A DNA stretch of 64,000 nt from Spironucleus salmonicida (GCF_000497125.1 NC_090600.1:1075197-1139196), one strand, 5' to 3'. Positions 1,671-59,925 are shown, counted from the stretch's first letter. Numbers and translations: made by a program. The notes: a model not told the origin generated them from the sequence alone.

Positions 1671-3529
1671 TCAAATTACTTATCGATATTTAAGATACAG
1701 GGATAAGCTACCAACTACCATCACAGCTCCTATAGTACCAGCTTTCGTCTTCTGTTCCCTTATTCTCTCGGTAAAATCGTCTGAATCGCCTTTGTTCACT
1801 CATCTTGGAGTGTGACTCTTCTGAATATCTCACATAGTTGTTAGAGGTACTGTTCCGAGACCATAAATGTGCACACCGCATTTCACTTTAGATGCGTCGC
1901 ATATGGCTCAGTTTCAAGCGATAAAGCATCTGTATATGGAGGCAATCATTATGGTGTTATATACCTTAAATGCTTACTGTCCAGCTTTTTCCTCGCGGGC
2001 GCTCAATTTGGAAAGCACAGAGAGTAGCATGGCTTCTTGATGTTGTATAAATACCCCAGATTACAGGGGATTCAGTGTTATTGTAGTAAACTCGTGCACC
2101 CTGCATTGTTTCCTTCATCGGAATATGACCTCCAGACACTAGGAACCTAACCAATTTTGGAACTCAAGAAACCACAGATTCAGCGAAATCGGTGGCGAAG
2201 CCCCAACTAACACAGGCGCTGAAGCAAATTATAGTTTTCCGGATCATTTTCTATTAGACCAGCATTTTACATACTCTACGAGGTACCAACCCTCATATTC
2301 GCTACATTTCCCTAACTGCATTTTCTGTGTGGTAAGTATTTATTGCACTCATTTTCCGCTACTCTGCAAGACACACAATCAACCACGCCCTGAATTTACA
2401 TTCAAATGCTAGGCATTCTACAAGAGCTTTGAATCGCTGTCTTCACAGTAATTATCAGCTTTAATACTTTAACATTTTTGGTACATTAACAGAGATAGTA
2501 GTATTTTATCATATTCATAACATGCTGTGTAAATACTAGCAGATATACGATCTGCACACTAGTTTGTGCGCAATTTACTTCTGCTTGTTACTGTCTAACA
2601 GGAGTCTCACATGATGCTCCCCACTTATCGTTGGACTTGAAATCACAGACATACAAGTTGGTTTTGGTATTTACTGGATATTCATCCTCACATTTATTGT
2701 ATTACCCTTTATCACTACAAGGTTCACACTCGCCAACACAGCATTCACAAAAGGTGACAGTACCTAAAATCGTGTGTTTTATACACTTGGCGCATTCACC
2801 ACCGGCGCATTAATACTAAGCTGATATGTGAGTGTGATCTTCACAATACCAACCGCTATAGAAGGCTATATTTTCAGAGCAAGGCAAAAGCCTACCTGAA
2901 ACCTGCTGGTGCATTAACAGTAATACCTAATGTTGTATAGTAAAACCTCTGCTGAGCAGACACTGCCTTCTGCCATTCACACTTTGGGGATCTGGTAATT
3001 CCTACTGATTAAGTATTTTTTTTCATATTAGTAATTTTGCAACTAAACCTGCGAGATATCCATGATACTGGAGTATACCACGTGTGGGTATTTTTAGTTT
3101 TTGCGATGATACTAATTTGTGCGGAGCATCCCAATTGTTTAATACACCACTCTGTCTCAAAAGCACTTTCTTTCTATTCTGTCGGCACCCAGTTTCTTCG
3201 TTTTATTTTAGGTGAAACTGGGTAGGATGCTCGCAAGAGTTTTCTGTTTCGTATGCCTGGCTAAATCGACGCCAACACTGGGTCCGGAAACTGCATTCAG
3301 GCTGGTGCATCACGTTAGGAGCCTTTAGAGACTGATAGATGCATCCTTTACAAATCGCGTTAGGGATTCTGAGCAAAGCGGCTATGAACTTCGCGGACGT
3401 TAAGGCATCAGATAGATCTCGGAGATGACATGAGCAGAAAGAAAGTAACATCTAGTATGGATCAGTAGGAGGACAAATCACCCATAGCAAATCATTCTTA
3501 ATACCAAACATAATTAAATCGAATTTCAT
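1671..3529 (-). pseudogene. Decayed cysteine-rich membrane protein (CRMP-like) gene, left copy
   Basis: CxxC-rich segments (e.g. CAGGECAKC...CECCVGECEPCSDKG) spread over several frames with in-frame TGA. Ends in a hydrophobic remnant KAGTIGAVMVVGSLSLYL. Boundaries approximate. Confidence 0.65.
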
Positions 3530-5101
3530 GTATTAGCTGATGGGTATTTATCAGAATATTAGCTAATATAAGAGCAGGAGACTCAAGTTGGCAGATTATA
3601 ATTATTTTCTTTAAACATATATTATATCGTCCACTACGTTGATCTATATGTATTTGCCTTTTCTTTATCGAGATACTAACTCTTATTTATTTACATATAT
3701 TTGCTTCTAATATCATATTACAAAAATAAACCATATCAGCATACAAATATACAAAATAACAATTTTTCTGCATCGCATTGATTATCAAATTAACTTTGAC
3801 TTATTAAAATATAATAAGTGGAATGGGATTTGAAATAAAATTAATGGACACAACTTCCACAATCTACTCAAACCACCAACTCTATATTTTATCACTACTC
3901 ATATCTTATTTAACATTTATACTATAAGCAGGAGAAAACACAATACAGTCCCTGGTTATTCTAATAAACTAAACAAAACACAAGAAACTGTGTAAAACTA
4001 TATCTTAAATATGTAATTAAATCGAAAAAATTATATCTTCAGAATTTGCTTGAAACCTATAAAGTTGAATAGATACATTTTATTCTTAGCGAAAAAATTC
4101 CCAGTATGCAAACTTATGGTGGTCATCTAAATTAAAATTTATCCCATACATTATAAAATGGAGAGGAAATAATTGTGGTCTGCTGTTTAGACAAGGATTT
4201 CTTAGTTGCTAATCTTGAAATTTAAATTTAAGATCATTTATGGAAAGGCATGAATTGACATAGGCTTGTGTGATAATAAATTATAGAAAATTAAATTATA
4301 AGATTTAGACTACCTTAGGTTGTTTATGTACATTTTCTGAAGTTATAGTCGCAGTGTTGAGTTAATGCATTTCGGATTTTGGTACTTTATTTTACATTAA
4401 TATGTAATAACTATATGATATATAATGCGAAAGAATGAGTGCCTCGATAATGTATATTATGATTGTAGGGATATTCTGTTGTTGTATGGCATAAATGTAG
4501 AATTTGAAGTATGAGTATATACTTAATTCCAGCTTTATGGTAATATTTAAGCAGAGTTCAGTATCAGTGATATTTTGATATACTAGCTCACCTGAGAAGT
4601 AAACACTTTACATTTACTAAAAATTTATAATCGCCAAGCGTGCAGGCAAGAGTACTGCTGGAAATTATGAGCGTATTTTCATGAAATTTGTAGTTTTCGA
4701 TGGTTCAGGATATTGATCTGATAGCTGATTGAAAGTCTTATGATACAAGGAAGCTAGCAGTTAAATTATTATAAGTTCCTAGAACTGGTAACTGAAAGCT
4801 AAATTTGGTATTGCTGACGTAGTTCGAAGAGTATACCATTGTTGAGTAAAAGAGAACAGGGTAGTGCGTCTGTGAATGACACGGCAGGATTGGTAGTATT
4901 TTATACTATAATTCAGTTTGTATTGGAGGCTATTTAGCACGCTAATCTGCTCAACAGGACCACCCCCGAGTACTTTGTCTGTAGGTATTATTTCATAATA
5001 AATATAGTATTATATACAATACTACCAGTTTATATGCTATATAGCTGAAATTGCAATTCATTGTACTTTACCATATTTAAGGGCATGGGGTTTCACTCTA
5101 A

Positions 5102-8100
5102 ATGTAAAAACTGTTATCTATAGATTTCATAGTACACTAATATACCATTTTTAATGGAAAAATAAAGGTGGATGGTAAGAAATAAAAGATACTCACATTT
5201 ACCATAGAAGGCAGCGAGATCAGATAGTCTAGGTAGTTGGATGTAAGTTCCATGTACCTATTCAAAACCACTATTACTACCACGGAGCAGCTATGCGCGG
5301 TCTAGGTCGTTCTACTCTACAAGAAGCTGGGGAAAATTGCTTAGAATGTGCGATTTTAGATATCATAGTTTGAAGATATAATTAAATTCCGATATTCAAA
5401 TTTTTGGGACAATATCGGCCTTGTCGCAGCCCAAATGGGCCTAGATGTACTATCTGTATAATCGGCCTGTGAATCTTATTGTACTTAATTTGCCAAGAGC
5501 ATTGAAAATCATGATTTGTAATACTTTTCGCTTTACAATAGCTTTGACACAAAAAAAATTCTCTAGCCTAAAAATATATCGTATTTTAGCTTCCATGAGA
5601 ACCAAGTTCTGTTGTAACTAGCAGCAATAAAGTATTAAAAGGAAGGAAACTATCCTCTAATTCTGCCATTAATTCTTGGTTACTCGGCATTCAGGTTGTA
5701 TGAGACTTAATTTAACACGAAATATAAAGAAAATGATTAGTAGATGGAAAATTTAAAACTACTTAAAGATACATTTGAGGAATCGAATAAGATTTACTCT
5801 GACGCGCAATTACTAAAAAACGGAACTATAGAACTCAATACGTTTCCAATTATCAACCTGTTCGAGCTTCCTATCCACTTTAATGAGACTAGCATTTGCT
5901 TATTAATGTTCTAGCAGCTCTGCCACGTATCCTACCTGTTCAAGGCAGAGTATTTCGCAATATTCTCCTTGATTGAAAATAAATTAGGCGATACTATTAC
6001 TAATGCTGTTATAAGCCAGAGTTCCAGATCTGGCAAAAGTGTCGCCTTGTACACGCAGTACTTTTTCCACCTGCTGATAGGAAATATTCCAATATTGTTT
6101 AATAAGGAAGGATCTGAGGATCAGCCACTGTACTAATATAAATCTGGGTCATTCCACTCGTAGCTGGAGAGATAATACTAGAATACACTCGAACTGCAAG
6201 ATTTCGAAAACTTAAGAGAAACCGTATTATATGATGTCTGCATCTTCCATGCCTTTCAACTGGAAAGTTTGAATCATCTAGAGTTTCTTTATCGCAAGAT
6301 GCATATTTTTATTGAAAATTTATAAAGTAGCACCAGAACAATTAATGGGGTTGGTGGACTCGATCTCATAAAGAATTTGAGATTTGATAGCTCGATAAAA
6401 CAACAGTTCAATTTGTTAAAATAGTATTCATTTTTTATCTATGAGGGTGATGTTGACACCAGCGGTATAATGGATGCGTAAGTGTTGTAATATAGTTTAA
6501 AACGTATGAATAATTAACGGCCTATGATGCTAGTTGACGAGTGCCTAGACTCATAAAAGTAAAATTACCAAAAATGTATAGCACTTTGCGAGGTTATTTT
6601 TGGAGAATCCCTATAGAGGTTTGTGCCACTGGGCAGATAGCAGTACGGAACTGTACTCAATATTCTAAAAAATGAGCAATTTGAATCGTTTTCCAATGAG
6701 TATATAGCTAGATACAATACTAAACATATTTTCGCCTGCCGTGTTCTTTCGCAGCTTCTGCACCCTGACTTGCTCTCAGTACTAAAAATGGAGCTAGACG
6801 AAATCAGTGCCTCAGAATAGCATCGGAGCTTGAACCTAGATTGCTACCATAAACTACAAATTATTATGACAAATATATTATCTTTAAGAAATAATAAATA
6901 AGTTGCAGAACCAGAAATAAACAAGCAGATATGTGAGAACTGGCATCTATTAACAATATATTTCAGCCTTCTCGAAGCAATACTGACTGATGTGGAGTAT
7001 ATTATTATGGCAACAGAGTATCTGCGGCTCTAGACTGAGGAATACGACATCCTGGATGAGCTTATAGTCTACTCACCGCAAATACTGAATGTTAGAAGCA
7101 GGAAAAAGTTTAAAAACAAATTTTTCTTAGGGTTACCGAAAAATTGCTTAAGCTAACAAAAATACAAAGAAGAGTTCGATTTGTACTTTTTTAGGTTCAT
7201 AGTTTCTTTGTTCGACCCGAGGGCGGTGGAGACTCTCTTCTGGAAGACGTTTTAGTTTATTAGTTTTGAACACATATATATAGAATAAAAGTCGGAGCTT
7301 AGGAGAGATTCTAAATATTGGTATTAAGTTGTTGCAAAATTTTGGATATATTCCGTAAATGACTAATTTGCATCTTATTTTAATTTCAAAACTCTCCCCA
7401 TCCGGTTTGAAGATTAACTACAGTCAATAATTACTAAAAGTAGCAGACAGTTGGAAAATCTAATTCACACTACGCATGCTAAAGTGCATGAGAGCTATCA
7501 CGCCTGTACATTTTCAGTTATAATAGTAGGGCCAGATATAGATATAATAAATGAGTCATCAATTGACAAGTTTAGTTATGAAACTTGTGAACGAGACTAT
7601 TCTTATCATTATGCTGCTAGCATTATTGGTTACGTCTAGCCGCACCCATCTCTGGTGCACAGTGCCCAATACGACAAGCGCAGCATGTTGGCCAACCAGG
7701 ATGATATGGGTGGAATACTGGATGGCATCCCCAAAACACTAAAAAGTTATTTAGACAGCTCTTCTAGTCTAGTCGAATTATTAAATTCTATGTTAGGCGA
7801 GAGTTCTGCTAGAATGCAGCTAATATGCCCTTTCATCTGCCATTAACTATGGTATGTGGATACAAAGTATTAACCTCAAGCTTGTAATTTTAACGCGGTT
7901 GAGAAGCATACGATTTAGGTCAACGGCAATAAAAGTATAGTCTACTAGTTCAGCAGTCTTACCAAAATAGTAAATTATATTGATATTAGTACAATCTGCA
8001 ATCGGGACAGTGGATTTAAAATTAACAGCTAAAGCTAAAATATTAATTTGCAAGAAAATGATCGTCGTTACAACTTGAGATGCATTGCTTCAGCTACCCT

Positions 8101-10204
8101 GAACTAAGAGGTGGTTGCAGTTCTGAGTTATTCTCTGATGTGTTAATTTATCCAAACGTATTCCATGGTTCAGCTTACAGCGATGGATGCATAACGAGAG
8201 TTCTGCAGCTTGTCCAGGTTATTCAAGCGGAGCATCCTAATAAATCATCTCAATATCATCTTGTTCATGATGATCATGACACAACAACCAGAGATGGCGA
8301 TTAAGAATACCTAACTGGTTATCCAGCAAGGGGAGAGCGGGGACATAGGATACTAGTACTTATATAAAGGCAGTATTATTACTAAGAATAGCGTGGAACT
8401 GATGAGATCCATACATCTCATACCAGGAAAACACGAGGTTATGGTCTTGGCTCCCACCTTCGACTTTGCGTTCCACGATTAGAATAATTGGAGGAAAAGA
8501 TTTACCCAGGCGGAGATATGGAACCAGGTGCTGAAAGATTCAATTGAATCTGCTGCGGAAGCTTTCGATATCCTGAAGGGGTAGAAAATCGTCACTGAAA
8601 GATTGATCATCGCAATCTGCTTCAATAAGAGCATGAGCCTATCACCGATATTAGAAGCATCGGAAATGCCATTCGACTTCATGCTCACCTTCCACGGCTA
8701 CAGTGGCCTGCGACTAGAGAATCTGCACGGCTATCAGATTTTGCCGGTATAGTGTGGCCACCACATCAAGGAAGTGATAGAGAAGATGGCAGCTCCGTTT
8801 GGACTAAGGAATGTGGTCCAGATAGGCCAGGATTAACATGAGGCATTGCCGCTAGTTAGGATGGAAAACTTAGCGGATACGATAGTTACGCAGCAGCAGA
8901 CGGAGGAGAGGGACGCCTACACGGAAGAGCAGAAAAATATTGGCGATAATTAAATAACTTCATATATTTATTAAATATAGAACTTATGTGACGACTTTCA
9001 GCGAAATATAAAAGCACTGCAGAGAGATCACAGATTATTCAAAGTCATAAGGCACGACCGTTAGCACTATATCTAGTTTATAACAAAAGCAAATGATAAA
9101 GACACAGTAATAGCGGATTTACGAAACATTAAGATTACGCTGATTCCTGACCAAGTCCCACTCTACGACTTTGCGGCACTATGTAATTCACCCAGCTGCA
9201 AAACTCAATTAAATTTTAAATATTCACGAGAGAATAAACATTTGGACGAAGTAATCCTGGACCTTGTACTAGTTCCGAAGTTTTCTCAGCTGAATGCCAA
9301 GCTGTGTGAATTGGAACATATGGTTAAATTTATAGAGTTACATGATACTAAGATTTTGATTATATTCCTTTAAAATATAAAATTATTATAACTGCTTCAC
9401 ATTCTCGAATTGTAGCTAGTATCGGTGTATAACAAAGTTTACGATTCCGCATTAACTGTTATTGTCCAGTAGACGGAAAATATAGATTCAATGATAATAA
9501 TAGAATTTAATGAAAATAAAACTTATTTCTATACTTATCGGAAAAGGCTATATGAGTCCAACTAAATAAATATGAGATTGCTCCAGATTGATATCGCGTA
9601 TTAGGCTGAGTTATCAGATAAGAAGATATATCCACCAATTACTGAGGATTCTAAAAAGCTCAACCTTAGTGTGCTGTACCTTAATCAGAAGATACAAATT
9701 TTGACTAGTTACAAGAGTTTGGTTTCAGAAATTTAAAACTATTAGAGTGTCATCTACAAAATTGAGAATGGCGTTATTCATCTGACGAATGAGAATGAGT
9801 ACATAGGATACATTGTTGATGCTAATAGGAAAATATTAACATTCATGGAGGAATATGAAATAGAATATGGTTACCTAATAATAAATCTCATCAAATGTGG
9901 TAAAGTTACTCTTGATAACAAGTTTTTGTTTGGATAATCGTTTGAGGTGTAATTTAGTATTATTCGTGGATTGTTTTAAAAAATAAATGACAGCTCAAAT
10001 GAATCATATTAGTGCTAGGTGGAGGTGCACGGTTAACTATTCACTGATGAATAGAGAAGTTATATTAAAGGCAAGTAGCTTGCGATAAGATAATATCCTT
10101 TAGGGGTAACTATAAATAATCTGTTTAGTCAAACCAAAGTGGTAGCGACAGGCATTAGACATGAAGAAAATAGAGATATACTGCAATTGGTAGCCATTGA
10201 GTGA
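5102..10204 (+). CDS. ~1700-aa hypothetical protein with putative P-loop NTPase motifs
   Basis: No in-frame TGA from 4880 to 10202 under table 6. First ATG is 5102 (alternatives 5252, 5435, 5744). Ends GAG-TGA (AGTGA). Walker-A-like NAVISQSSRSGKS (GKS at 6032-6040) and Walker-B-like PMMLVDE (6521-6541). Track ORFs at 7451 and 7655 are pieces of this frame. Confidence 0.8.
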
Positions 10205-12799
10205 TCTACCATTATTTTGTAATTTTCGCATCGAATAGGTATCAGTAGTCATATTTCACAAACTTATGAATTATTCATTCTTTCAAAAATCGGAAGAGAA
10301 TGTTTATGTATTTGACGTGTATTAGCAATATATCATTATTGTTTATATTCTAAAATACCCACTACAGGTTGCTACTCCCAAATAATCTGCAGTTAAGTAG
10401 CAACTAGTTATTAACATATTTAATGGAATATAAGTTACTTACGAACACGAAATCGCACTGCGCGACCAGTCCAGCAAATTTGCAGTTTTGTTGACTCCAG
10501 AGAAGCAATTTCTAAATCCTGCTTCCAACACATAAATTGAGCGCATTATTTCTTCTGGCACTCCGCTTCTCTGCCTTTATTAAACTCAACTAGTATAAAA
10601 TAACTTACTTAAAGCGAGGAAAAATATACTTTTGATAATTTTGCAGCTCTAATATTTTACAGCAAGCATCACTTTCTAGGCTCACGTAAACTTGAATACT
10701 AAATGCATTTTTATACTTCGGCAAATGCTGGTGCAGCAAACGTGTCTATAAGGCATTCGGAAAAACGGTAGCGAGCCTTTATAAATGGTAGGACTTAGGG
10801 GAAATCACAAAATCAACTGAAATATGGAAAGTGAGGATTTTATAGTGGTATAGTAAAACGTATGCTAGGAAGAGTTTCTATGGGGAGTTTCAGAAATCTG
10901 GAACTGAGAAGCATTCTGTCAAATGGCGTGATTCAATTATGTGTTGTAAATGTTTTCCGAGAGCTAGAACAGTGAGGCATATTCTACCATATACTGCATT
11001 AGAGATTGTGCAATTTATTACGGAAAAGAAACATTACACTGTGGACTACTCAGATAATAGAGTTGGTAATTCATTTGTATGAGTATACAAATTATTGGTA
11101 ATTCTGCTATGTTGTATTTAAATAATATAGAACTTAGGGAATTGGGTAGAGTTTGAATTATGCATTATCTAAAATAATGGAATTTGAAAGCTGCTAATTT
11201 CTATATTCACTAATTTAATTTGTCAACGGGTTAAAGATTAACTTCTAGATGCACTAGATCCTGTATTTGTCGGATTTAATGAAAATTCAAAATTTTAAAA
11301 AGCTGCCTAGATGCCTTTTATTCAGAAATATCTGTCTTTACTTAAGACATTCGTCAGACACTATCGATAAGGCAATTGTTTTGCAGCCAATGCTGGAATT
11401 CTTAAGTGGTGAGGAGAACATTAAATTTTAAACTAGTTTATATTAATAGTAGACTCTTTATAATTAATCACCGATGAAAGACTTGATTGGGTTAATAATT
11501 TAATGATTGAAAAATATAAGCCGTAGAGGACCTTGTTATTCGTAAATTAAGAGATATACGATGGATATGTTTTGGTAGGATTATTCATAAGATAGATAGA
11601 AACTAATATAAAAACAGCTGAGAATATCCGAAATTGCGTTGGAAAAATAAAAAGACACTGTTATATAAAAGCAAAGGCTAATATACAAGCTATATATCAA
11701 AAAATATTATTTTAAGATAAAAACAGGGTAACAGTTCCTAAACAGGTATAATATTGTATGCAAAAGGTTAAGAAAATAGACTTATTATATATTTATATTT
11801 GTTAACGAATAATAACTTTATATGAATAATAACGAATGATTATTAGTACACAATTATATTTATATTAAAAAATTATGAAAGGTAAAGACATTACAACGTA
11901 CCGCCGCTAAAGTAAATATAAATAATGTAGTACAAGAAGGCTGTGATAATAATTACTTATAAACTGCATTATTGGATATAGCTTTCAAATTTAATTCTCT
12001 AAATAATTATATCAATACAAAACAAATAGTATCAGACTATTGTAATTATGCATAAAGTACATACTTAGTTTATATTGAAATAGAATAGTTGACTGTAGGT
12101 CACTAACTTATCAACTACGGGATAATATTCTTCCAATAATTTTATTAAACTTAAACTACTGATAATTCAGGTTCTATCAATGTATATTCCAAAATAATAG
12201 TGTTAATTAACTATAACTAAATATTACCAATAAAGACTTATTATATACTCAAATTTTAATAAGATACATTTTATATAATGACTTTCTTTGTGTATTCTTT
12301 TATCTCATCTTGCTATAGGAATTCCTCGTCTTACTTTTGCATGTTATGATATTCAAGTTATTATTTATCAAAAAAGTAGACTCAGAAGTAAATTTTTTAC
12401 AAATATTATTATTCTCTGCCAAATGATAGCCTTCAATGCTGATAATAAGTTTATACTTGTTCAGTTATTAGTACAGTATCGTTATCTTTAATAAATAACT
12501 GTACTAAATATCGAATCTATAATTTCTCTAAACAAGAATATTTATTACTAGATATTAGCTATTTTGCGGTGTTAGTTTCACGATTTGTTAATATGATAGT
12601 TAATTTTATCATGGTAATACTATGAGAATTATGTTGTTACAAATAAAACGCCTATTATAGTAAGATACTGATAATGAAACACAAAACCATAAAGCTAACT
12701 ATAAAATAATTATATAGTTAATAGATAATCATGTACAGTAAGCTACAATACTGTTTCATTTGATATATAACCAAATATTTATCTACGAAACTTTGTATA

Positions 12800-21540: not shown

Positions 21541-21613
21541 GGGAGTATAGCTCAGGTGGTAGAGCAATCGCCTGCAAAGTGATCGGTCACGAGTTCAATT
21601 CTCGTTACTCCCT
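21541..21613 (+). tRNA. tRNA-Cys (GCA), left copy, no adjacent oligo-T terminator
   Basis: Acceptor stem GGGAGTA/TACTCCC, D-arm TAGCTCAGGTGGTAGAGC, anticodon arm ATCGC-CTGCAAA-GTGAT, T-loop GTTCAAT, discriminator U (Cys identity element). Confidence 0.95.
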
Positions 21614-26700: not shown

Positions 26701-26702
26701 GT

Positions 26703-36400: not shown

Positions 36401-38111
36401 TTACTTTAGCGGCGGTACGTTGTAATGTCTTTACCTTTCATAATTTTTTAATATAAATATAATTGTGTACTAATAATCATTCGTTATTATTCATATAAAG
36501 TTATTATTCGTTAACAAATATAAATATATAATAAGTCTATTTTCTTAACCTTTTGCAGACAATATTATACCTGTTTAGGAACTGTTACCCTGTTTTTATC
36601 TTAAAATAATATTTTTTGATATATAGCTTGTATATTAGCCTTTGCTTTTATATAACAGTGTCTTTTTATTTTTCCAACGCAATTTCGGATATTCTCAGCT
36701 GTTTTTATATCAGTTTCTATCTATCTTATGAATAATCCTACCAAAACATATCCATCGTATATCTCTTAATTTACGAATAACAAGGTCCTCTACGGCTTAT
36801 ATTTTTCAATCATTGAATTATTAACCCAATCAAGTTTTTCATCAGTGATTAATTATAAAAAGTCTACTATTAATATAAACTAGTTTAAAATTTAATGTTC
36901 TCCTCACCACTTAAGAATTCCAGCATTGGCTGCAAAACAATTGCCTTATCGATAGTGTCTGACGAATGTCTTAAGTAAAGACAGATATTTCTGAATAAAA
37001 GGCATCTAGGCAGCTTTTTAAAATTTTGAATTTTCATTAAATCCGACAAATACAGGATCTAGTGCATCTAGAAGTTAATCTTTAACCCGTTGACAAATTA
37101 AATTAGTGAATATAGAAATTAGCAGCTTTCAAATTCCATTATTTTAGATAATGCATAATTCAAACTCTACCCAATTCCCTAAGTTCTATATTATTTAAAT
37201 ACAACATAGCAGAATTACCAATAATTTGTATACTCATACAAATGAATTACCAACTCTATTATCTGAGTAGTCCACAGTGTAATGTTTCTTTTCCGTAATA
37301 AATTGCACAATCTCTAATGCAGTATATGGTAGAATATGCCTCACTGTTCTAGCTCTCGGAAAACATGTACAACACATAATTGAATCACGCCATTTGACAG
37401 AATGCTTCTCAGTTCCAGATTTCTGAATCGCCCCATTGAAACTCTTCCTAGCATATGTTTTACTATACCACTATAAAATCCTCACTTTCCATATTTCAGT
37501 TGATTTTGTGATTTCCCCTAAGTCCTACCATTTATAAAGGCTCGCTACCATTTTCCCGAATGCCTTATAGACACGTTTGCTGCACCAGCATTTGCCGAAG
37601 TATAAAAATGCATTTAGTCTTCAAGTTTACGTGACCCTAGAAAGTGATGTTTGCTGTAAAATGTTAGAGCTGCAAAACTATCAAAAGTATATTTTTCCTC
37701 GTTTTAAGAAATATATTTTATACTAGTTGAGTTTAATAAAGGCAGAGAAGCGGAGTGCCAGAAGAAATAATGCGCTCAATCTATGTGTTGGAAGCAGGAT
37801 TTCGAAATTGCTTCTCTGGAGTCAACAAAACTGCAAATTTGCTGGGCTGGTCGCGCAGTGCGATTTCGTGTTCATAAGTAAGTTATATTCCATTAAATAT
37901 GTAAATAACTAGTTGCTACTTAACTGCAGATTATTTGGGCGTAGCAACCTGTAGTGGGTATTTTAGAATGCAAACAATAATGATATATTGCTAATACAGG
38001 TCAAATACATAAACATTCTCTTCCGATTTTTGAAAGAATGAATAATTCATAAATTTGTGAAATATGACAACTGATACCTATGCGATGCGAAAATTACAAA
38101 ATAATAGTAGA

Positions 38112-41100
38112 TCACTCAATAGCTATCAATTGCAGTATATCTCTATTTTCTTCATGTCTAATGCCTGTCGCTACCACTTTGGTTTGACTAAACAGATTAT
38201 TTATAGTTACCCCTAAAGGATATTATCTTATCGCAAGCTACTTGCCTTTAACATAACTTCTCTATTCATCAGTGAATAGTTATCCGTGCACCTCCACCTA
38301 GCACTAATATTATTTATTTGAACTGTCATTTATTTTTTAAAACAATCCACGAATAATACTAAATTACACCTCAAACGATTATCCAAACAAAAACTTGTTA
38401 TCAAGAGTAACTTTACCACATTTGATGAGATTTATTATTAGGTAACCATATTCTATTTCATATTCCTCCATGAATGTTAATATTTTCCTATTAGCATCAA
38501 CAATGTATCCTATGTACTCATTCTCATTCGTCAGATGAATAACGCCATTCTCAATTTTGTAGATGACACTCTAATAGTCTTAAATTTCTGAAACCAAACT
38601 CTTGTAACTAATCAAAATTTGTATCTTCTGATTAAGGTACAGCACACTAAGGTTGAGCTTTTTAGAATCCTCAGTAATTGGTGGATATATCTTCTTATCT
38701 GATAACTCAGCCTAATACGCGATATCAATCTGGAGCAATCTCATATTTATTTAGTTGGACTCATATAGCCTTTTCCGATAAGTATAGAAATAAGTTTTAT
38801 TTTCATTAAATTCTATTATTATCATTGAATCTATATTTTCCGTCTACTGGACAATAACAGTTAATGCGGAATCGTAAACTTTGTTATACACCGATACTAG
38901 CTACAATTCGAGAATGTGAAGCAGTTATAATAATTTTATATTTTAAAGGAATATAATCAAAATCTTAGTATCATGTAACTCTATAAATTTAACCATATGT
39001 TCCAATTCACACAGCTTGGCATTCAGCTGAGAAAACTTCGGAACTAGTACAAGGTCCAGGATTACTTCGTCCAAATGTTTATTCTCTCGTGAATATTTAA
39101 AATTTAATTGAGTTTTGCAGCTGGGTGAATTACATAGTGCCGCAAAGTCGTAGAGTGGGACTTGGTCAGGAATCAGCGTAATCTTAATGTTTCGTAAATC
39201 CGCTATTACTGTGTCTTTATCATTTGCTTTTGTTATAAACTAGATATAGTGCTAACGGTCGTGCCTTATGACTTTGAATAATCTGTGATCTCTCTGCAGT
39301 GCTTTTATATTTCGCTGAAAGTCGTCACATAAGTTCTATATTTAATAAATATATGAAGTTATTTAATTATCGCCAATATTTTTCTGCTCTTCCGTGTAGG
39401 CGTCCCTCTCCTCCGTCTGCTGCTGCGTAACTATCGTATCCGCTAAGTTTTCCATCCTAACTAGCGGCAATGCCTCATGTTAATCCTGGCCTATCTGGAC
39501 CACATTCCTTAGTCCAAACGGAGCTGCCATCTTCTCTATCACTTCCTTGATGTGGTGGCCACACTATACCGGCAAAATCTGATAGCCGTGCAGATTCTCT
39601 AGTCGCAGGCCACTGTAGCCGTGGAAGGTGAGCATGAAGTCGAATGGCATTTCCGATGCTTCTAATATCGGTGATAGGCTCATGCTCTTATTGAAGCAGA
39701 TTGCGATGATCAATCTTTCAGTGACGATTTTCTACCCCTTCAGGATATCGAAAGCTTCCGCAGCAGATTCAATTGAATCTTTCAGCACCTGGTTCCATAT
39801 CTCCGCCTGGGTAAATCTTTTCCTCCAATTATTCTAATCGTGGAACGCAAAGTCGAAGGTGGGAGCCAAGACCATAACCTCGTGTTTTCCTGGTATGAGA
39901 TGTATGGATCTCATCAGTTCCACGCTATTCTTAGTAATAATACTGCCTTTATATAAGTACTAGTATCCTATGTCCCCGCTCTCCCCTTGCTGGATAACCA
40001 GTTAGGTATTCTTAATCGCCATCTCTGATTATTGTGTCATGATCATCATGAACAAGATGATATTGAGATGATTTATTAGGCTGCTCCGCTTGAATAACCT
40101 GACAAGCTGCAGAACTCTCGTTATGCATCCATCGTTGTAAGCTGAACCATGGAATACGTTTGGATAAATTAACACATCAGAGAATAACTCAGAACTGCAA
40201 CCACCTCTTAGTTCAGGGTAGCTGAAGCAATGCATCTCAAGTTGTAACGACGATCATTTTCTTGCAAATTAATATTTTAGCTTTAGCTGTTAATTTTAAA
40301 TCCACTGTCCCGATTGCAGATTGTACTAATATCAATATAATTTACTATTTTGGTAAGACTGCTGAACTAGTAGACTATACTTTTATTGCCGTTGACCTAA
40401 ATCGTATGCTTCTCAACCGCGTTAAAATTACAAGCTTGAGGTTAATACTTTGTATCCACATACCATAGTTAATGGCAGATGAAAGGGCATATTAGCTGCA
40501 TTCTAGCAGAACTCTCGCCTAACATAGAATTTAATAATTCGACTAGACTAGAAGAGCTGTCTAAATAACTTTTTAGTGTTTTGGGGATGCCATCCAGTAT
40601 TCCACCCATATCATCCTGGTTGGCCAACATGCTGCGCTTGTCGTATTGGGCACTGTGCACCAGAGATGGGTGCGGCTAGACGTAACCAATAATGCTAGCA
40701 GCATAATGATAAGAATAGTCTCGTTCACAAGTTTCATAACTAAACTTGTCAATTGATGACTCATTTATTATATCTATATCTGGCCCTACTATTATAACTG
40801 AAAATGTACAGGCGTGATAGCTCTCATGCACTTTAGCATGCGTAGTGTGAATTAGATTTTCCAACTGTCTGCTACTTTTAGTAATTATTGACTGTAGTTA
40901 ATCTTCAAACCGGATGGGGAGAGTTTTGAAATTAAAATAAGATGCAAATTAGTCATTTACGGAATATATCCAAAATTTTGCAACAACTTAATACCAATAT
41001 TTAGAATCTCTCCTAAGCTCCGACTTTTATTCTATATATATGTGTTCAAAACTAATAAACTAAAACGTCTTCCAGAAGAGAGTCTCCACCGCCCTCGGGT

Positions 41101-43213
41101 CGAACAAAGAAACTATGAACCTAAAAAAGTACAAATCGAACTCTTCTTTGTATTTTTGTTAGCTTAAGCAATTTTTCGGTAACCCTAAGAAAAATTTGTT
41201 TTTAAACTTTTTCCTGCTTCTAACATTCAGTATTTGCGGTGAGTACACCATAAGCTCATCCAGGATGTCGTATTCCTCAGTCTAGAGCCGCAGATACTCT
41301 GTTGCCATAATAATATACTCCACATCAGTCATTATTGCTTCAAGAAGGCTGAAATATATTGTTAATAGATACCAGTTCTCACATATCTGCTTGTTTATTT
41401 CTGTTTCTGCAACTTATTTATTATTTCTTAAAGATAATATATTTGTCATAATAATTTGTAGTTTATGATAGCAATCTAGGTTCAAGCTCCGATGCTATTC
41501 TGAGGCACTGATTTCGTCTAGCTCCATTTTTAGTACTGAGAGCAAGTCAGGGTGCAGAAGCTGCGAAAGAACACGGCAGGCGAAAATATGTGTAGTATTG
41601 TATCTAGCTGTATACTCATTGGGAAACGATTCAAATTGCTCATTTTTTAGAATATTGAGTACAGTTCCGTACTGCTATCTGCCCAGTGGCACAAACCTCT
41701 ATAGGGATTCTCCAAAAATAACCTCGCAAAGTGCTATACATTTTTGGTAATTTTACTTTTATGAGTCTAGGCACTCGTCAACTAGCATTATAGGCCGTTA
41801 ATTATTCATACGTTTTAAACTATATTACAACACTTACGCATCCATTATACCGCTGGTGTCAACATCACCCTCATAGATAAAAAATGAATACTATTTTAAT
41901 AAATCGAACTGTTGTTTTATCGAGCTATCAAATCTCAAATTCTTTATGAGATCGAGTCCACCCACCCCATTAATTGTTCTGGTGCTACTTTATAAATTTT
42001 CAATAAAAATATGCATCTTGCGATAAAGATACTCTAGATGATTCAAACTTTCCAGTTGAAAGGCATGGAAGATGCAGACATCATATAATACGGTTTCTCT
42101 TAAGTTTTCGAAATCTTGCAGTTCGAGTGTATTTTAGTATTATCTCTCCAGCTACGAGTGGAATGACCCAGATTTATAGTAGTACAGTGGCTGATCCTCA
42201 GATCCTTCCTTATTAAACAATATTGGAATATTTCCTATCAGCAGGTGGAAAAAGTACTGCGTGTACAAGGCGACACTTTTGCCAGATCTGGAACTCTGGC
42301 TTATAACAGCATTAGTAATAGTATCGCCTAATTTATTTTTAACCAACGAGAATAATGCGAAATACTCTGCCTTGAACAGGTAGGATACGTGGAAGAGCTG
42401 CTAGAAAATTAATAAGCAAATGCTAGTCTCATTAAAGTGGATAGGAAGCTCGAACAGGTTGATAATTGGAAACGTATTGAGTTTTAGATTTCCGTTTGTT
42501 AGTAATTTAGCGTCAGAGTAAGTCTTATTCGATGCATCAAATGTATCTTTAAGTAGTTTTAAATTTTCTATCTACTAATCATTTTCTTTATATTTCGTGT
42601 TAAATTTAGTCTCATACAACCTGAATGCCGAGTAACCAAGAATTAATGGCAGAATTAGAGGATAGTTTTCTTCCTTTTAATACTTTATTGCTGCTAGTTA
42701 CAACAGAACTTGGTTCTCATGGAAGCTAAAATACGATATATTTTTAGGCTAGAGAATTTTTTTTGTGTCAAAGCTATTGTAAAGCGAAAAGTATTACAAA
42801 TCATGATTTTCAATGCTCTTGGCAAATTAAGTACAATAAGATTCACAGGCCGATTATACAGATAGTACATCTAGGCCCATTTGGGCTGCGACAAGGCCGA
42901 TATTGTCCCAAAAATTTGAATATCGGAATTTAATTATATCTTCAAACTATGATATCTAAAATCGCACATTCTAAGCAATTTTCCCCAGCTTCTTGTAGAG
43001 TAGAACGACCTAGACCGCGCATAGCTGCTCCGTGGTAGTAATAGTGGTTTTGAATAGGTACATGGAACTTACATCCAACTACCTAGACTATCTGATCTCG
43101 CTGCCTTCTATGGTAAATGTGAGTATCTTTTATTTCTTACCATCCACCTTTATTTTTCCATTAAAAATGGTATATTAGTGTACTATGAAATCTATAGATA
43201 ACAGTTTTTACAT
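38112..43213 (-). pseudogene. Frameshifted copy of the ~1700-aa putative NTPase gene (truncated to ~1055 aa)
   Basis: Mirror of 5102-10204. One C is missing near 40101 (ttgtccagg left vs ttgtcagg right), giving TGA at 40046-40048. The internal ATG at 5744 is ATA here. A sequencing error cannot be excluded. Confidence 0.7.
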
Positions 43214-44785
43214 TTAGAGTGAAACCCCATGCCCTTAAATATGGTAAAGTACAATGAATTGCAATTTCAGCTATATAGCATATAAACTGGTAGTATTGTA
43301 TATAATACTATATTTATTATGAAATAATACCTACAGACAAAGTACTCGGGGGTGGTCCTGTTGAGCAGATTAGCGTGCTAAATAGCCTCCAATACAAACT
43401 GAATTATAGTATAAAATACTACCAATCCTGCCGTGTCATTCACAGACGCACTACCCTGTTCTCTTTTACTCAACAATGGTATACTCTTCGAACTACGTCA
43501 GCAATACCAAATTTAGCTTTCAGTTACCAGTTCTAGGAACTTATAATAATTTAACTGCTAGCTTCCTTGTATCATAAGACTTTCAATCAGTTATCAGATT
43601 AATATCCTGAACCATGAAAACCTACAAATCTCACGAAAATACGCTCATAATTTCCAGCAGTACTCTTGCCTGCACGCTTGGCGATTATAAATTTTTAGTA
43701 AATGTAAAGTGTTGACTTCTCAGGTGAGCTAGTATATCAAAATATCACTGATACTGAACTCTGCTTAAATATTACCATAAAGCTGGAATTAAGTATATAC
43801 TCATACTTCAAATTCTACATTTATGCCATACAACAACAGAATATCCCTACAATCATAATATACATTATCGAGGCACTCATTCTTTCGCATTATATATCAT
43901 ATAGTTATTACATATTAATGTAAAATAAAGTACCAAAATCCGAAATGCATTAACTCAACACTGCGACTATAACTTCAGAAAATGTACATAAACAACCTAA
44001 GGTAGTCTAAATCTTATAATTTAATTTTCTATAATTTATTATCACACAAGCCTATGTCAATTCATGCCTTTCCATAAATGATCTTAAATTTAAATTTCAA
44101 GATTAGCAACTAAGAAATCCTTGTCTAAACAGCAGACCACAATTATTTCCTCTCCATTTTATAATGTATGGGATAAATTTTAATTTAGATGACCACCATA
44201 AGTTTGCATACTGGGAATTTTTTCGCTAAGAATAAAATGTATCTATTCAACTTTATAGGTTTCAAGCAAATTCTGAAGATATAATTTTTTCGATTTAATT
44301 ACATATTTAAGATATAGTTTTACACAGTTTCTTGTGTTTTGTTTAGTTTATTAGAATAACCAGGGACTGTATTGTGTTTTCTCCTGCTTATAGTATAAAT
44401 GTTAAATAAGATATGAGTAGTGATAAAATATAGAGTTGGAGGTTTGAGTAGATTGTGGAAGTTGTGTCCATTAATTTTATTTCAAATCCCATTCCACTTA
44501 TTATATTTTAATAAGTCAAAGTTAATTTGATAATCAATGCGATGCAGAAAAATTGCTATTTTGTATATTTGTATGCTGATATGGTTTATTTTTGTAATAT
44601 GATATTAGAAGACAATATATGTAAATAAATAAGAGTTAGTATCTCGATAAAGAAAAGGCAAATACATATAGATCAACGTAGTGGAGGATATAATATATGT
44701 TTAAAGAAAATAATTATAATCTGCCAACTTGAGTCTCCTGCTCTTATATTAGCTAATATTCTGATAAATACCCATCAGCTAATAC

Positions 44786-46746
44786 ATGAAATTCGATTTA
44801 ATTATGTTTGGTATTAAGAATGATTTGCTATGGGTGATTTGTGTTCCTACTGATCCATAATGGATGCTACTTTCTTTCTGCTCATGTCATCTCCGAGATC
44901 TATCTGATGCCTTAACGTCCACGAAGTTCATAGCCGCTTTGCTCAGAATCCCTAACGTGACTTGTAAAGGATGCATATATCAGTCTCTAAAGGCTCCTAA
45001 CGTGATGCACCAGCCTGAATTCAGTTTCTGGACCCAGTGTTGGCGTCGATTTAGCCAGGCATACGAAACTGAAAACTCTTGCGAGCATCCTGCCCAGTTT
45101 CACCTAAAATAAAACGAAGAAACTGGGTGCCGACAGCATAGAAAGAAAGTGCTTTTGAGGCAGAGTGGGGTATTAAACAATTGGGATGCTCCGCACAAGT
45201 TAGTATCATCACAAAAACTAAAAATACCCACACGTGGTATACTCCAGTATCATGGATATCTCGCAGGTTTAGTTGCAAAATTACTAATATGAAAAAAAAT
45301 ACTTAATCAGTAGGAATTACCAGATCCCCAAAGTGTGAATGGCAGAAGGCAGTGTCTGCTCAGCAGAGGTTTTACTATACAACATTAGGTATTACTGTTA
45401 ATGCACCAGCAGGTTTCAGGTAGGCTTTTGCCTTGCTCTGAAAATATAGCCTTCTATAGCGGTTGGTATTGTGAAGATCACACTCACATATCAGCTTAGT
45501 ATTAATGCGCCGGTGGTGAATGCGCCAAGTGTATAAAACACACGATTTTAGGTACTGTCACCTTTTGTGAATGCTGTGTTGGCGAGTGTGAACCTTGTAG
45601 TGATAAAGGGTAATACAATAAATGTGAGGATGAATATCCAGTAAATACCAAAACCAACTTGTATGTCTGTGATTTCAAGTCCAACGATAAGTGGGGAGCA
45701 TCATGTGAGACTCCTGTTAGACAGTAACAAGCAGAAGTAAATTGCGCACAAACTAGTGTGCAGATCGTATATCTGCTAGTATTTACACAGCATGTTATGA
45801 ATATGATAAAATACTACTATCTCTGTTAATGTACCAAAAATGTTAAAGTATTAAAGCTGATAATTACTGTGAAGACAGCGATTCAAAGCTCTTGTAGAAT
45901 GCCTAGCATTTGAATGTAAATTCAGGGCGTGGTTGATTGTGTGTCTTGCAGAGTAGCGGAAAATGAGTGCAATAAATACTTACCACACAGAAAATGCAGT
46001 TAGGGAAATGTAGCGAATATGAGGGTTGGTACCTCGTAGAGTATGTAAAATGCTGGTCTAATAGAAAATGATCCGGAAAACTATAATTTGCTTCAGCGCC
46101 TGTGTTAGTTGGGGCTTCGCCACCGATTTCGCTGAATCTGTGGTTTCTTGAGTTCCAAAATTGGTTAGGTTCCTAGTGTCTGGAGGTCATATTCCGATGA
46201 AGGAAACAATGCAGGGTGCACGAGTTTACTACAATAACACTGAATCCCCTGTAATCTGGGGTATTTATACAACATCAAGAAGCCATGCTACTCTCTGTGC
46301 TTTCCAAATTGAGCGCCCGCGAGGACAAAGCTGGACAGTAAGGATTTAAGGTATATAACACCGTAATGATTGCCTCCATATACAGATGCTTTATCGCTTG
46401 AAACTTAACCGTATGTGACGCCTCTAAAGTGAAATGCGGTGTGCACATTTCTGGTCTCGGAACAGTACCTCTAACAACTATGTGAGATATTCAGAAGAGT
46501 CAAACTCCAGGGCGAGTGAACAAAGGCGATTCAGACGATTTGGCAGATGAGGGAAGTAAACTATCAGGGAATGTACCTTGTATTATAGTATCTATGATGG
46601 TTGCAATTGGCTGTATTGATGGTTGGTTGTGTATTACGTTCTTTACAAATCTCAGCGAAGAGATTATCCATTTTAAAATTACTATTAATATTATCAATTT
46701 ATACTCCGCAAATACAAACTACAAGAGGAATTATATGTACTAATGA
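44786..46746 (+). pseudogene. Decayed CRMP-like gene, right copy with a different 3' end
   Basis: Mirror of 1774-3529 up to 46541, then continues in frame as LADEGSKLSGNVPCIIVSMMVAIGCIDGWLCITFF, a degenerate KLxGG-TM segment. Confidence 0.65.
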
Positions 46747-59923: not shown

Positions 59924-59925
59924 AA

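What the first reader, a model, noticed from the sequence alone, without database searches (positions are those of the whole stretch)
1774..46541. 45-kb palindrome of surface-antigen genes enclosing a potentially invertible 5-kb CRMP cassette
Seen: two ~19.8-kb inverted arms flank a unique 5,083-bp spacer. The spacer holds an intact CRMP (-) and a decayed paralogue (+) head-to-head, and the arms carry further CRMP genes and pseudogenes. Established: recombination between inverted repeats flips the spacer and lets arms convert each other; CRMPs are the Spironucleus counterparts of Giardia VSP surface antigens. Inference: this could be a recombination-driven surface-antigen amplification/diversification locus (flip-flop isomers, arm-to-arm conversion). 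I do not know of this being described for diplomonad CRMPs.
Basis: partly seen in the sequence, partly recalled or inferred. Interest (0 to 1): 0.8.

Follow-up and report, generated by a model that had tools for sequence, protein, structure and literature searches.

The report
45-kb palindrome hinged on tRNA genes
This is a 45-kb mirror-image duplication in the salmon parasite Spironucleus salmonicida, hinged on two tRNA-Cys genes and kept nearly identical by copying between its arms; it carries only a few cysteine-rich membrane protein genes and looks like an enlarged relative of the inverted gene pairs known in Giardia, not a new antigen switch.

Summary
Arms 1774-21616 and 26700-46541 (19,843 and 19,842 nt) are 99.28% identical in inverted orientation around a unique 5,083-bp spacer. 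The DNA is Spironucleus salmonicida, read with TAA/TAG as Gln.

The title overstates the cargo. CRMP-related sequence is 1,924 of 19,843 nt per arm: one intact CRMP-1 and one pseudogene. The largest gene is a 1,700-aa orphan.

Three things were not in the finding:
- The inner junction lies 3 nt past a tRNA-Cys gene in each arm.
- The outer junction lies inside the CRMP pseudogene.
- The 143 arm differences form a mosaic: 137 sit in ten islands covering 21% of the arm, and the 5.1 kb next to the spacer has none. This fits arm-to-arm gene conversion.

Proteins from the independent 2014 assembly match both arm variants, which argues against an artefact.

Spacer flipping is plausible but would change nothing locally. 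The duplicated CRMP-1 copies are identical, so they are homogenised, not diversified. Giardia's identical inverted vsp pairs are the closest precedent.

Verdict: real, partly supported, a new member of a known kind, of modest interest.

The parts
1774..21616 (.). Left arm of the palindrome (19,843 nt)
   Evidence: 99.28% identical to the reverse complement of 26700-46541
26700..46541 (.). Right arm of the palindrome (19,842 nt)
21617..26699 (.). Unique spacer, 5,083 bp, 24.7% GC
21541..21613 (+). tRNA-Cys(GCA), left hinge; arm identity ends 3 nt past its 3' end; no T4 run until +101
   Evidence: (67.2 bits)
26703..26775 (-). tRNA-Cys(GCA), right hinge; followed at once by a T6 run
16511..21616 (.). 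Inner tract with no difference between the arms (mirror 26700-31805)
   Evidence: longest identical run is 5,106 nt; the maximum in 10,000 uniform simulations was 1,956
22848..23744 (-). Intact CRMP-2-type gene in the spacer: 298 aa, 41 Cys, 12 CXXC, C-terminal TM, no KKXKK tail
   Evidence: (57-62% identity to proteins named Cysteine-rich membrane protein 2)
24954..25766 (+). Decayed CRMP relic, head-to-head with the intact spacer gene
   Evidence: HSPs in two frames, 20-39% identity
19316..19993 (-). CRMP-1 gene, left copy: 225 aa, 6 CXXC, TM, tail KKGKK
   Evidence: nearest other protein 66% identical, named CRMP 1
28323..29000 (+). CRMP-1 gene, right copy, 100% identical; head-to-head with the left copy, starts 8.3 kb apart
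1640..3022 (-). CRMP pseudogene (in-frame TGA, frame change, lost Cys); the outer junction at 1774 falls just 5' of its TM-coding tail
45293..46660 (+). Mirror CRMP pseudogene; beyond the junction at 46541 it continues into a different, weakly CRMP-like TM segment
   Evidence: E 0.003-0.005 in a 1.1-kb database
5102..10204 (+). 1,700-aa orphan gene, intact copy; member of a family found only in S. salmonicida
38112..43213 (-). Right-arm copy of the 1,700-aa gene, split by a 1-bp deletion at 40101/40102 (CC to C); deposited as 1,055-aa and 642-aa proteins
13072..13827 (+). 251-aa hypothetical, present in NCBI protein sets (mirror 34489-35244 -)
   Evidence: no Pfam match
18397..19230 (-). 277-aa hypothetical in the GC-richer part of the arm (mirror 29086-29919 +)
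   Evidence: no Pfam match

Best explanation
This is a genuine interstitial inverted segmental duplication (a palindrome) on a 1.73-Mb chromosome-scale contig of Spironucleus salmonicida. SHOWN: two 19.84-kb arms flank a 5,083-bp unique spacer. The inner junction of each arm lies 3 nt past the 3' end of a tRNA-Cys(GCA) gene. The outer junctions lie inside a CRMP pseudogene, just before its transmembrane-coding tail. The arms differ at 143 sites arranged as a mosaic of islands (mean 3.3% divergence) separated by long identical tracts. Divergence falls from 1.25% in the outer third to 0.06% in the inner third. INFERRED: (1) Origin was a replication- or repair-based inverted duplication, by fold-back or template switch, or by break-induced replication. 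Either it was primed by a pre-existing inverted pair of tRNA-Cys genes 5 kb apart, or it broke at one tRNA gene acting as a fork barrier. It was resolved at the far end through homology between two oppositely oriented CRMP paralogues. (2) The duplication is old enough to have reached about 3% divergence. Arm-to-arm gene conversion has since erased differences over about 79% of the length, most efficiently next to the spacer, where homologous positions lie closest on the chromosome. (3) Consequences: one CRMP-1 gene is held as an identical head-to-head pair, and a second copy of a 1,700-aa orphan gene is decaying (frameshift; pN/pS 0.80). Crossing-over between the arms may flip the spacer, but that would be locally silent.
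For: Structure. Hinge at the tRNA genes. A random point lies within 3 nt of one of the 324 ends of the 162 tRNA genes in 14.7 Mb with probability about 1.5e-4 (gene count and genome size from Table 1 of PMC9509377). Outer junction in the CRMP pseudogene. The outermost 188 nt holding differences are 6.9% divergent, as expected at the edge of a homology-driven event. Mosaic: variance/mean of differences per 250-nt bin is 6.1, against a maximum of 1.74 in 10,000 uniform simulations. 51 of 80 bins are empty (simulated maximum 24). The longest identical run is 5,106 nt (simulated maximum 1,956). 137 of 143 differences lie in ten islands spanning 4,161 of 19,843 nt. Constraint does not explain the identical tracts. 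Inside the 1,700-aa coding sequence, tracts of 1.1 and 1.4 kb have no difference while pN/pS across the gene is 0.80, and the stretch 14580-18396, which holds no deposited gene, has only 4 differences. The islands are not tandem repeats. The differences are substitutions, 76 transitions and 64 transversions, not the indels typical of long-read error. Independent support for two real copies comes from proteins of the 2014 454/Illumina assembly. P0006 equals the left arm at 523 of 523 residues. P0004 equals the right arm at 210 of 210. P0005 (EST41886.1) carries the right-arm residue at 27 of 27 discriminating positions. Context: 19.2% of this assembly lies in duplications of at least 2 kb and 95% identity, some multigene and up to 64 kb, and its authors suggest gene conversion around CRMPs (PMC9509377, main text read). 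Precedents for the mechanism: fold-back inverted duplications with spacers of 766-70,466 bp and junctions in inverted repeats (PMC3907307, passages); tRNA genes at rearrangement breakpoints and as fork-pausing sites (PMC2817429, passages).
Against: No reads, depth or optical-map data could be examined here, so both junctions rest on the published assembly. The arms (19.8 kb) are longer than the read N50 (14.6 kb), and the authors report manual checks only for their two largest duplications. Conversion is inferred from one genome. The classical test, arms more alike within a lineage than orthologous arms between lineages, could not be run. GC content of identical tracts (33.7%) is not higher than that of islands (35.5%), so there is no sign of GC-biased conversion. 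The two spacer ends share no perfect inverted microhomology beyond the shared ACT. The left tRNA copy lacks a nearby T-run, which fits a single ancestral tRNA gene better than a pre-existing pair, so the exact origin stays open. The left flank beyond the outer junction is CRMP-TM-like only by eye and gave no tblastn hit at E <= 0.05.
Confidence: 0.7

Rival explanations
1. Assembly artefact: a false inverted duplication created by chimeric long reads, or two haplotypes joined head-to-head.
For: Arms exceed the read N50 of 14.6 kb. The authors describe manual checks only for the two largest duplications. No reads could be inspected here.
Against: The structure is interstitial, with different unique flanks on each side and a unique 5.1-kb spacer. 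Missed-adapter chimeras give spacer-less perfect palindromes (recalled, not from a call). The arms differ by 140 substitutions, and both variants occur in proteins of the independent 2014 assembly. Allelic heterozygosity is 0.09-0.15%, far below the 3.3% seen in islands. The largest gap between discriminating sites is 5.1 kb, well within read length.
Confidence: 0.07
2. A duplication whose differences reflect only mutation and uneven selective constraint, with no gene conversion.
For: Constraint and mutation rate do vary along genomes, and only one genome is available.
Against: Over-dispersion is far beyond every uniform simulation. Identical tracts cover both coding DNA and the 14580-18396 stretch that holds no deposited gene, while pN/pS in the one large gene is 0.80. 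Divergence falls monotonically towards the spacer: 1.25%, 0.85%, 0.06% by thirds.
Confidence: 0.08
3. A programmed invertible switch or diversification device for surface antigens; this is the first reader's functional reading.
For: Long inverted repeats flank a CRMP cassette. How CRMP expression is regulated is unknown, and no Dicer, Argonaute or RdRP was found in this genome (PMC3916229, passage).
Against: The flanks of the spacer are mirror-identical for 5,106 nt, so a flip alters no local promoter-gene link. Each CRMP has its own AAAatg context. No recombinase domain appeared among the 24 + 68 + 12 ORFs scanned against Pfam. The duplicated CRMP-1 copies are identical. CRMP-related DNA is under 10% of each arm.
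Confidence: 0.04
4. The arms are the long terminal inverted repeats, or the cargo, of a large mobile or virus-derived element, with the multicopy 1,700-aa protein as its enzyme.
For: The 1,700-aa protein belongs to a family of at least 20 paralogues on several chromosomes and on small unplaced contigs. The family has conserved SRSGKS and LVDEC motifs that resemble Walker A and B boxes; that is my reading, not a tested match.
Against: Paralogues are only 34-66% identical, unlike a recently active element. The family gave no Pfam match, no PDB sequence match (best E 0.21) and no fold match (0 of at least 500 matches at E <= 0.001, TM 0.13 or below). No integrase, transposase or reverse-transcriptase domain turned up anywhere in the palindrome. 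The junctions lie in a tRNA gene and a CRMP pseudogene, not in terminal repeats of an element.
Confidence: 0.04

Closest known systems
Identical inverted vsp gene pairs of Giardia lamblia WB (Adam et al. 2010, PMC2996952, passages read) and of G. muris (Xu et al. 2020, PMC7641422, passages read)
   Same: Also a diplomonad. Two identical ORFs of a cysteine-rich membrane protein family lie head-to-head or tail-to-tail around a few kb of intervening DNA. Flanks are identical up to an abrupt divergence point. In G. lamblia no identical vsp genes were found outside this arrangement. Here too the nearest other CRMP-1 found is only 66% identical. In G. muris the intervening DNA also holds genes or pseudogenes.
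   Different: Giardia pairs have 2.2-3.8 kb between the ORFs, and identity stops 139-729 bp beyond the coding regions. Here the ORFs are 8.3 kb apart, and identity runs 1.6 kb inward and 17.5 kb outward, covering several unrelated genes. The family is CRMP-1 (KKGKK tail), not VSP (CRGKA). tRNA genes sit at the hinge.
Large palindromes of primate X and Y chromosomes maintained by arm-to-arm gene conversion (seen as listing abstracts only, PMC8327919, PMC8600007, PMC8981503)
   Same: Arms over 99% identical, a unique spacer, multicopy gene families in the arms, and conversion proposed as the homogenising force.
   Different: The primate palindromes are conserved across species, which proves concerted evolution, and show GC-biased conversion. 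Here only one genome is available and no GC excess was found in identical tracts. The host here is a mitotically propagated protist.
Fold-back inverted duplications with a disomic spacer (Hermetz et al. 2014, PMC3907307, passages read) and template switching at short inverted repeats, ODIRA (PMC11790251, passages read)
   Same: An inverted copy is separated from the original by a few-kb single-copy spacer (human median 3,428 bp; here 5,083 bp). The junction lies at a repeated element present in inverted orientation, or at microhomology.
   Different: The human cases are terminal, with deletions, translocations or rings, and ODIRA typically gives a triplication. This structure is interstitial with exactly two copies, so a second homology-guided junction in the CRMP pseudogene has to be postulated.
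tRNA genes at evolutionary breakpoints and inversions in yeasts (Di Rienzi et al. 2009, PMC2817429, passages read)
   Same: A rearrangement junction coincides with a tRNA gene. tRNA genes pause replication forks and provide dispersed identical repeats.
   Different: That evidence is statistical and comes from budding yeasts. Nothing is known about fork pausing or tRNA-mediated recombination in diplomonads.

Membership tests
Large palindrome (inverted segmental duplication with spacer) homogenised by gene conversion | Two arms in inverted orientation with very high identity | tested here: met
   99.28% identity over 19,844 alignment columns
Large palindrome (inverted segmental duplication with spacer) homogenised by gene conversion | Single-copy spacer between the arms | tested here: met
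   5,083 bp, unique within the window and without internal inverted symmetry. Uniqueness in the whole genome was not testable.
Large palindrome (inverted segmental duplication with spacer) homogenised by gene conversion | Concerted evolution: arms more alike than orthologous arms of related lineages | not testable with these tools
   No other Spironucleus genome is reachable. Only an indirect signal is available: mosaic with variance/mean 6.1, a 5.1-kb identical inner tract, and a gradient towards the spacer.
Large palindrome (inverted segmental duplication with spacer) homogenised by gene conversion | Physical confirmation by spanning reads, clones or maps | not testable with these tools
   Indirect only: both arm variants occur in proteins of the independent 2014 assembly. 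The predicted mirrored NheI pattern is given.
Diplomonad identical inverted pairs of cysteine-rich surface protein genes (Giardia vsp type) | Two identical ORFs head-to-head or tail-to-tail | tested here: met
   The CRMP-1 copies at 19319-19993 (-) and 28323-28997 (+) are 100% identical and head-to-head.
Diplomonad identical inverted pairs of cysteine-rich surface protein genes (Giardia vsp type) | 2-4 kb of intervening non-coding DNA | tested here: not met
   8.3 kb lies between the start codons, holding two tRNA genes, an intact CRMP-2 and a relic.
Diplomonad identical inverted pairs of cysteine-rich surface protein genes (Giardia vsp type) | Identity ends abruptly within 139-729 bp of the ORFs | tested here: not met
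   The ends are abrupt, but they lie 1.6 kb inward and 17.5 kb outward of the ORF.
Diplomonad identical inverted pairs of cysteine-rich surface protein genes (Giardia vsp type) | VSP family membership (CRGKA tail; Pfam VSP above its cut-off) | tested here: not met
   The tail is KKGKK. Pfam VSP scores only 18.6 and 17.7 bits against a cut-off of 31.4.
CRMP-1 (Xu et al. 2014 definition) | [quoted passage not shown] | tested here: met
   The arm gene ends ...[13 protein letters not shown] and has 6 CXXC and 1 CXC. All 8 of 8 non-self hits are named CRMP 1. The TM domain was judged from the hydrophobic stretch and the Pfam VSP tail match, not by a TM predictor.
CRMP-2 (Xu et al. 2014 definition) | Three or more CXXC/CXC motifs, a C-terminal TM domain, and no KKXKK motif | tested here: met
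   The spacer gene has 12 CXXC and 2 CXC, and its tail is ...FWFMKKKVSTAPVQVRNDFE. The three closest hits (57-62% identity) are named CRMP 2.
Invertible DNA switch (flip-flop that changes expression) | Inverted repeats flank the invertible segment | tested here: met
Invertible DNA switch (flip-flop that changes expression) | Inversion changes which promoter or context a gene sees | tested here: not met
   Both flanks are mirror-identical for 5,106 nt. The genes carry their own start contexts.
Invertible DNA switch (flip-flop that changes expression) | Both orientations present in a population | not testable with these tools
   This needs long reads spanning the spacer plus more than 5.1 kb of an arm.

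The most novel reading that the evidence does not exclude
The locus may be an actively recombining palindrome that exists as two interconverting isomers in S. salmonicida populations. The same intrachromosomal process (inverted duplication seeded at short dispersed repeats such as tRNA genes, then continual arm-to-arm conversion) may be a shared diplomonad way of holding cysteine-rich surface protein genes as identical inverted pairs. That would link Giardia's vsp pairs and Spironucleus CRMPs despite their independent family expansions. A bolder variant is that the two convergent tRNA-Cys genes act as boundary elements delimiting the CRMP-2 cassette.
Probability: 0.2. Interest if true: 0.55.

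Novelty: new member of a known kind. Interest (0 to 1): 0.3.

Why it matters
If the junctions are confirmed, this would be a cleanly resolved protist palindrome in which the origin (a tRNA hinge and an outer junction guided by paralogue homology) and the maintenance (a conversion mosaic with a gradient towards the spacer) can both be read from the sequence. It extends the 'identical inverted pair' arrangement of Giardia surface-protein genes to Spironucleus CRMPs at about ten times the scale. It also gives a concrete locus where mitotic gene conversion and inversion rates could be measured in a diplomonad, a group in which sex and recombination are debated. It does not by itself reveal an antigen-switching mechanism.

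Tried and rejected
- **Coding-potential scan.** A codon log-likelihood scan trained on six confident genes separated coding from non-coding DNA poorly and was not used.
- **Pfam on the arms and spacer.** I scanned 68 of the 122 stop-to-stop ORFs of at least 90 codons between 10.2 and 26.7 kb. Only two hits appeared, both below cut-off (Hex_IIIa E 0.0058, Collagen E 0.0089), and I treat them as noise. The GC-richer stretch 17.5-19.3 kb gave no CRMP hit with 3 + 12 CRMP queries.
- **Deposited gene models.** Exact look-up of ten first-ATG ORFs found 2 of 10 in public protein sets. The other eight may be unannotated or may start elsewhere.
- **The 1,700-aa family.** The ESM Atlas gave no usable hit. 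A PDB profile search gave one hit at E 0.21. Pfam on 13 family members gave nothing below E 0.017. Distant relatives showed only sub-threshold coiled-coil matches. The AlphaFold model of residues 1-1200 was poor (pLDDT 47.2) and was not searched. The model of residues 230-720 was moderate (pLDDT 70.8, pTM 0.61), but Foldseek against the PDB gave 0 matches at E <= 0.001. My Walker A/B reading of two conserved motifs therefore remains unsupported.
- **Other checks on the palindrome.** The spacer has no residual inverted symmetry. The window holds no further relics of the 1,700-aa family (75 HSPs, 0 outside the two copies). The divergent islands contain no tandem repeats. Identical tracts show no GC excess.
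- **Not run or not possible.**
  - Complex prediction, search_dna_similar and the genome-contig scan were not run.
The rest of the S. salmonicida genome therefore could not be searched for other palindromes.
  - No supplementary files were opened. Table S4 and Figure S7 of PMC3916229 and Additional file 1 of PMC2996952 may bear on CRMP and vsp classification.

Full report
**Observation.** The window contains a 44.8-kb palindrome at exactly the coordinates given.
- The repeat finder reports two abutting inverted pairs, 8215-21621/26695-40101 and 1774-8214/40101-46541. They are split only by a 1-bp indel.
- blastn of the left arm against the reverse complement of the right gives a single alignment of 19,844 columns. 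It is 99.279% identical, with 140 mismatches and 3 one-base gaps.
- Uninterrupted identity ends at 21616 and 26700.
- The window has no other repeat of 60 nt or more. The spacer has no match elsewhere in the window and no internal inverted symmetry.

**Organism and genetic code.**
- Under the standard code the window has one ORF of 150 codons or more. With TAA/TAG read as Gln it has 104, including ORFs of 1,700 and 1,610 codons.
- Exact look-up places six of seven tested proteins in public sets, on a contig of 1,732,135 bp. Named cluster mates come from Spironucleus salmonicida.
- This corresponds to the PacBio and optical-map assembly of Xu et al. 2022 (PMC9509377; I read the main text).
  - That paper reports 19.2% of the genome in duplications of at least 2 kb and 95% identity, and multigene duplications up to 64 kb.
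  - It also reports 138 CRMP1 and 248 CRMP2 genes, gene-poor GC-richer surroundings of CRMPs, and a suggestion of gene conversion.
  - It does not mention palindromes.
- A search for Spironucleus plus palindrom* found three papers, none relevant by title.

**Gene content.**
- CRMP-like sequence occurs at only four places, plus their mirror images. I searched with three local CRMP sequences and with all 12 non-self homologues from the database.
  - The spacer holds an intact 298-aa gene (22851-23744, minus strand). Its three closest relatives, at 57-62% identity, are named CRMP 2.
  - Head-to-head with it lies a decayed relic at 24954-25766.
  - Each arm holds an intact 225-aa gene with the KKGKK tail that defines CRMP-1 (definition from PMC3916229; motif counts). 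All 8 of 8 non-self hits are named CRMP 1, the nearest at 66% identity.
  - At the outer end of each arm lies a CRMP pseudogene with an in-frame TGA, a frame change and lost cysteines.
- Together these cover 1,924 of 19,843 nt per arm.
- The largest arm gene is a 1,700-aa protein (5102-10204).
  - Its right-arm copy carries a 1-bp deletion and is deposited as two proteins.
  - It belongs to a family found only in S. salmonicida. All 20 named hits of a word-indexed search come from this species.
  - Sequence, profile and fold searches all left it unexplained.
- Two further ORFs, of 251 and 277 aa, are deposited proteins without Pfam matches.
- About 9 kb of each arm (10.2-19.3 kb) shows no recognisable gene.
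- The flanks carry ordinary genes: an MFS transporter, an amino-acid transporter, a bromodomain/WD protein, two ELMO-domain proteins, Snf7 and a hydrolase.
- 'Palindrome of surface-antigen genes' therefore overstates the content.

**Junctions.**
- Rfam and ARAGORN find exactly two tRNA genes in the window. Both are tRNA-Cys(GCA), at 21541-21613 (+) and 26703-26775 (-).
- Arm identity stops 3 nt after the 3' end of each.
- The genome has 162 tRNA genes in 14.7 Mb. The chance that a random point falls this close to a tRNA end is about 1.5e-4.
- The right copy is followed at once by T6. The left copy has no T4 run for 100 nt.
- The outer junction is sharp at nucleotide level. It sits inside the CRMP pseudogene, just after a shared '...NKGDSDD' and before the hydrophobic tail, and the tails differ on the two sides.
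  - The right tail is weakly CRMP-TM-like (E 0.003-0.005 in a tiny database).
  - The left tail is CRMP-TM-like only by eye.
- The outermost 188 nt that hold differences are the most divergent part of the arms, at 6.9%.

**Pattern of differences.**
- The 143 differences comprise 76 transitions, 64 transversions and 3 indels. They are far from evenly spread.
  - The variance/mean ratio per 250-nt bin is 6.1, against a maximum of 1.74 in 10,000 uniform simulations.
  - 51 of 80 bins are empty, against a simulated maximum of 24.
  - The 5,106 nt next to the spacer have no difference, against a simulated maximum run of 1,956.
- 137 of the 143 differences lie in ten islands covering 21% of the arm, at a mean divergence of 3.3%. 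By thirds, from outer to inner, divergence is 1.25%, 0.85% and 0.06%.
- Selective constraint does not explain this.
  - Within the 1,700-aa gene, pN/pS is 0.80 (12 synonymous and 36 non-synonymous differences), yet tracts of 1.1 and 1.4 kb are identical.
  - The stretch 14580-18396, which holds no deposited gene, has four differences.
- The islands are not tandem repeats.

**Artefact check.**
- I could not see reads.
- Against an artefact:
  - The structure is interstitial, with distinct flanks and a unique spacer.
  - The differences are substitutions.
  - Island divergence far exceeds the reported heterozygosity of 0.09-0.15%.
  - No gap between discriminating sites exceeds 5.1 kb, well below the read N50 of 14.6 kb.
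  - Proteins of the independent 2014 assembly reproduce both variants. P0006 matches the left arm at 523 of 523 residues. P0004 matches the right arm at 210 of 210. P0005 carries the right-arm residue at 27 of 27 discriminating positions before an old-assembly frameshift.

**Most likely history and working (inference).**
- An inverted duplication arose by fold-back, template switching or break-induced replication.
- For the inner junction there are two options. Either two tRNA-Cys genes already lay in inverted orientation 5 kb apart and supplied the homology, or a single tRNA gene was the break or stall site.
  - The first option explains why identity stops where the tRNA ends.
  - The second fits the missing terminator at the left copy.
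- The far end was resolved through homology between two oppositely oriented CRMP paralogues, which left hybrid pseudogenes with different tails.
- Both elements have precedents.
  - Human fold-back duplications have single-copy spacers of 766-70,466 bp, and their junctions lie in inverted Alu or LINE copies (3 of 21) or in 2-8 bp of microhomology (13 of 21) (PMC3907307, passages).
  - Yeast breakpoints and inversions cluster at tRNA genes, which pause replication forks (PMC2817429, passages).
- The arms diverged to roughly 3%. Repeated arm-to-arm conversion then erased most differences, most efficiently near the spacer.
- Crossing-over between the arms could also invert the spacer. Because both sides of the spacer are mirror-identical for 5.1 kb and each CRMP has its own AAAatg context, a flip would be locally silent.

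**Comparison with what is known.**
- The nearest precedent is in the sister lineage.
  - Giardia lamblia WB has 14 pairs of identical vsp genes, head-to-head or tail-to-tail, with 2.2-3.8 kb between them and identity ending abruptly 139-729 bp beyond the ORFs. No identical vsp genes were found outside such pairs (PMC2996952, passages).
  - G. muris has seven such pairs, with genes or pseudogenes in between (PMC7641422, passages).
- The identical head-to-head CRMP-1 pair here works like these. It fails three defining features of that class: the spacing, the extent of identity and the gene family. I therefore treat it as a larger analogue, not a member.
- It also resembles the sex-chromosome palindromes of primates, which I saw only as abstracts in a search listing. 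The test that defines those, concerted evolution across species, cannot be run here.
- CRMPs as antigens remain a hypothesis. One of three tagged CRMP-1 proteins localised like a VSP, and no RNAi machinery was found in this genome (PMC3916229, passages).

**Verdict.**
- It is a new member of a known kind, and interest is modest.
- The useful additions are the tRNA-Cys hinge, the junction inside the CRMP pseudogene and the conversion gradient.

Noticed in passing
window 59201-60000: A sharp GC island of 57-58% GC sits among 24-36% surroundings. It covers the 3' end of the ELMO-domain gene 58352-59599 (+). By eye, the C-terminal ~110 residues of that gene are encoded GC-richly yet still resemble the AT-rich paralogue 62459-63793 (-). 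This may be local GC-biased conversion or a foreign patch.
   Followed up: partly
window 5102-10204 and 38112-43213: The 1,700-aa orphan belongs to a family found so far only in S. salmonicida, with 20 or more paralogues at 34-66% identity on several chromosomes and on small unplaced contigs. The N-terminal ~1,240 residues are strongly conserved, including SRSGKS and LVDEC motifs. No Pfam, PDB or fold match was found. UniRef names one distant relative 'Dynein heavy chain', while NCBI calls it hypothetical.
   Followed up: yes
window 49723-51222: The amino-acid transporter gene here is deposited as 293 aa (346 aa in older sets). A 536-aa paralogue (KAH0573135.1) aligns across 49723-51222 at 71.5% identity with gaps. 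The window copy may therefore be truncated, or its gene model too short.
   Followed up: partly
window 21614-21720 versus 26596-26702: The right tRNA-Cys copy has a T6 run directly after the shared ACT. The left copy has no T4 run for 100 nt. The left copy may lack a normal RNA polymerase III terminator, which hints that the right arm holds the original context.
   Followed up: partly
window 19459-19525 (mirror in the right arm): A 27-nt tandem repeat of about 2.5 copies encodes the proline-rich 'DPNVPVPPV' stalk of the CRMP-1 just before its transmembrane segment.
   Followed up: no
whole window, confident genes: In six confident genes, Gln is encoded more often by the reassigned stop codons (TAA 157, TAG 81) than by CAA (62) or CAG (58). 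With TGA as the only stop, spurious ORFs of 200-400 codons abound on both strands, so ORF length alone is weak evidence for a gene here.
   Followed up: partly
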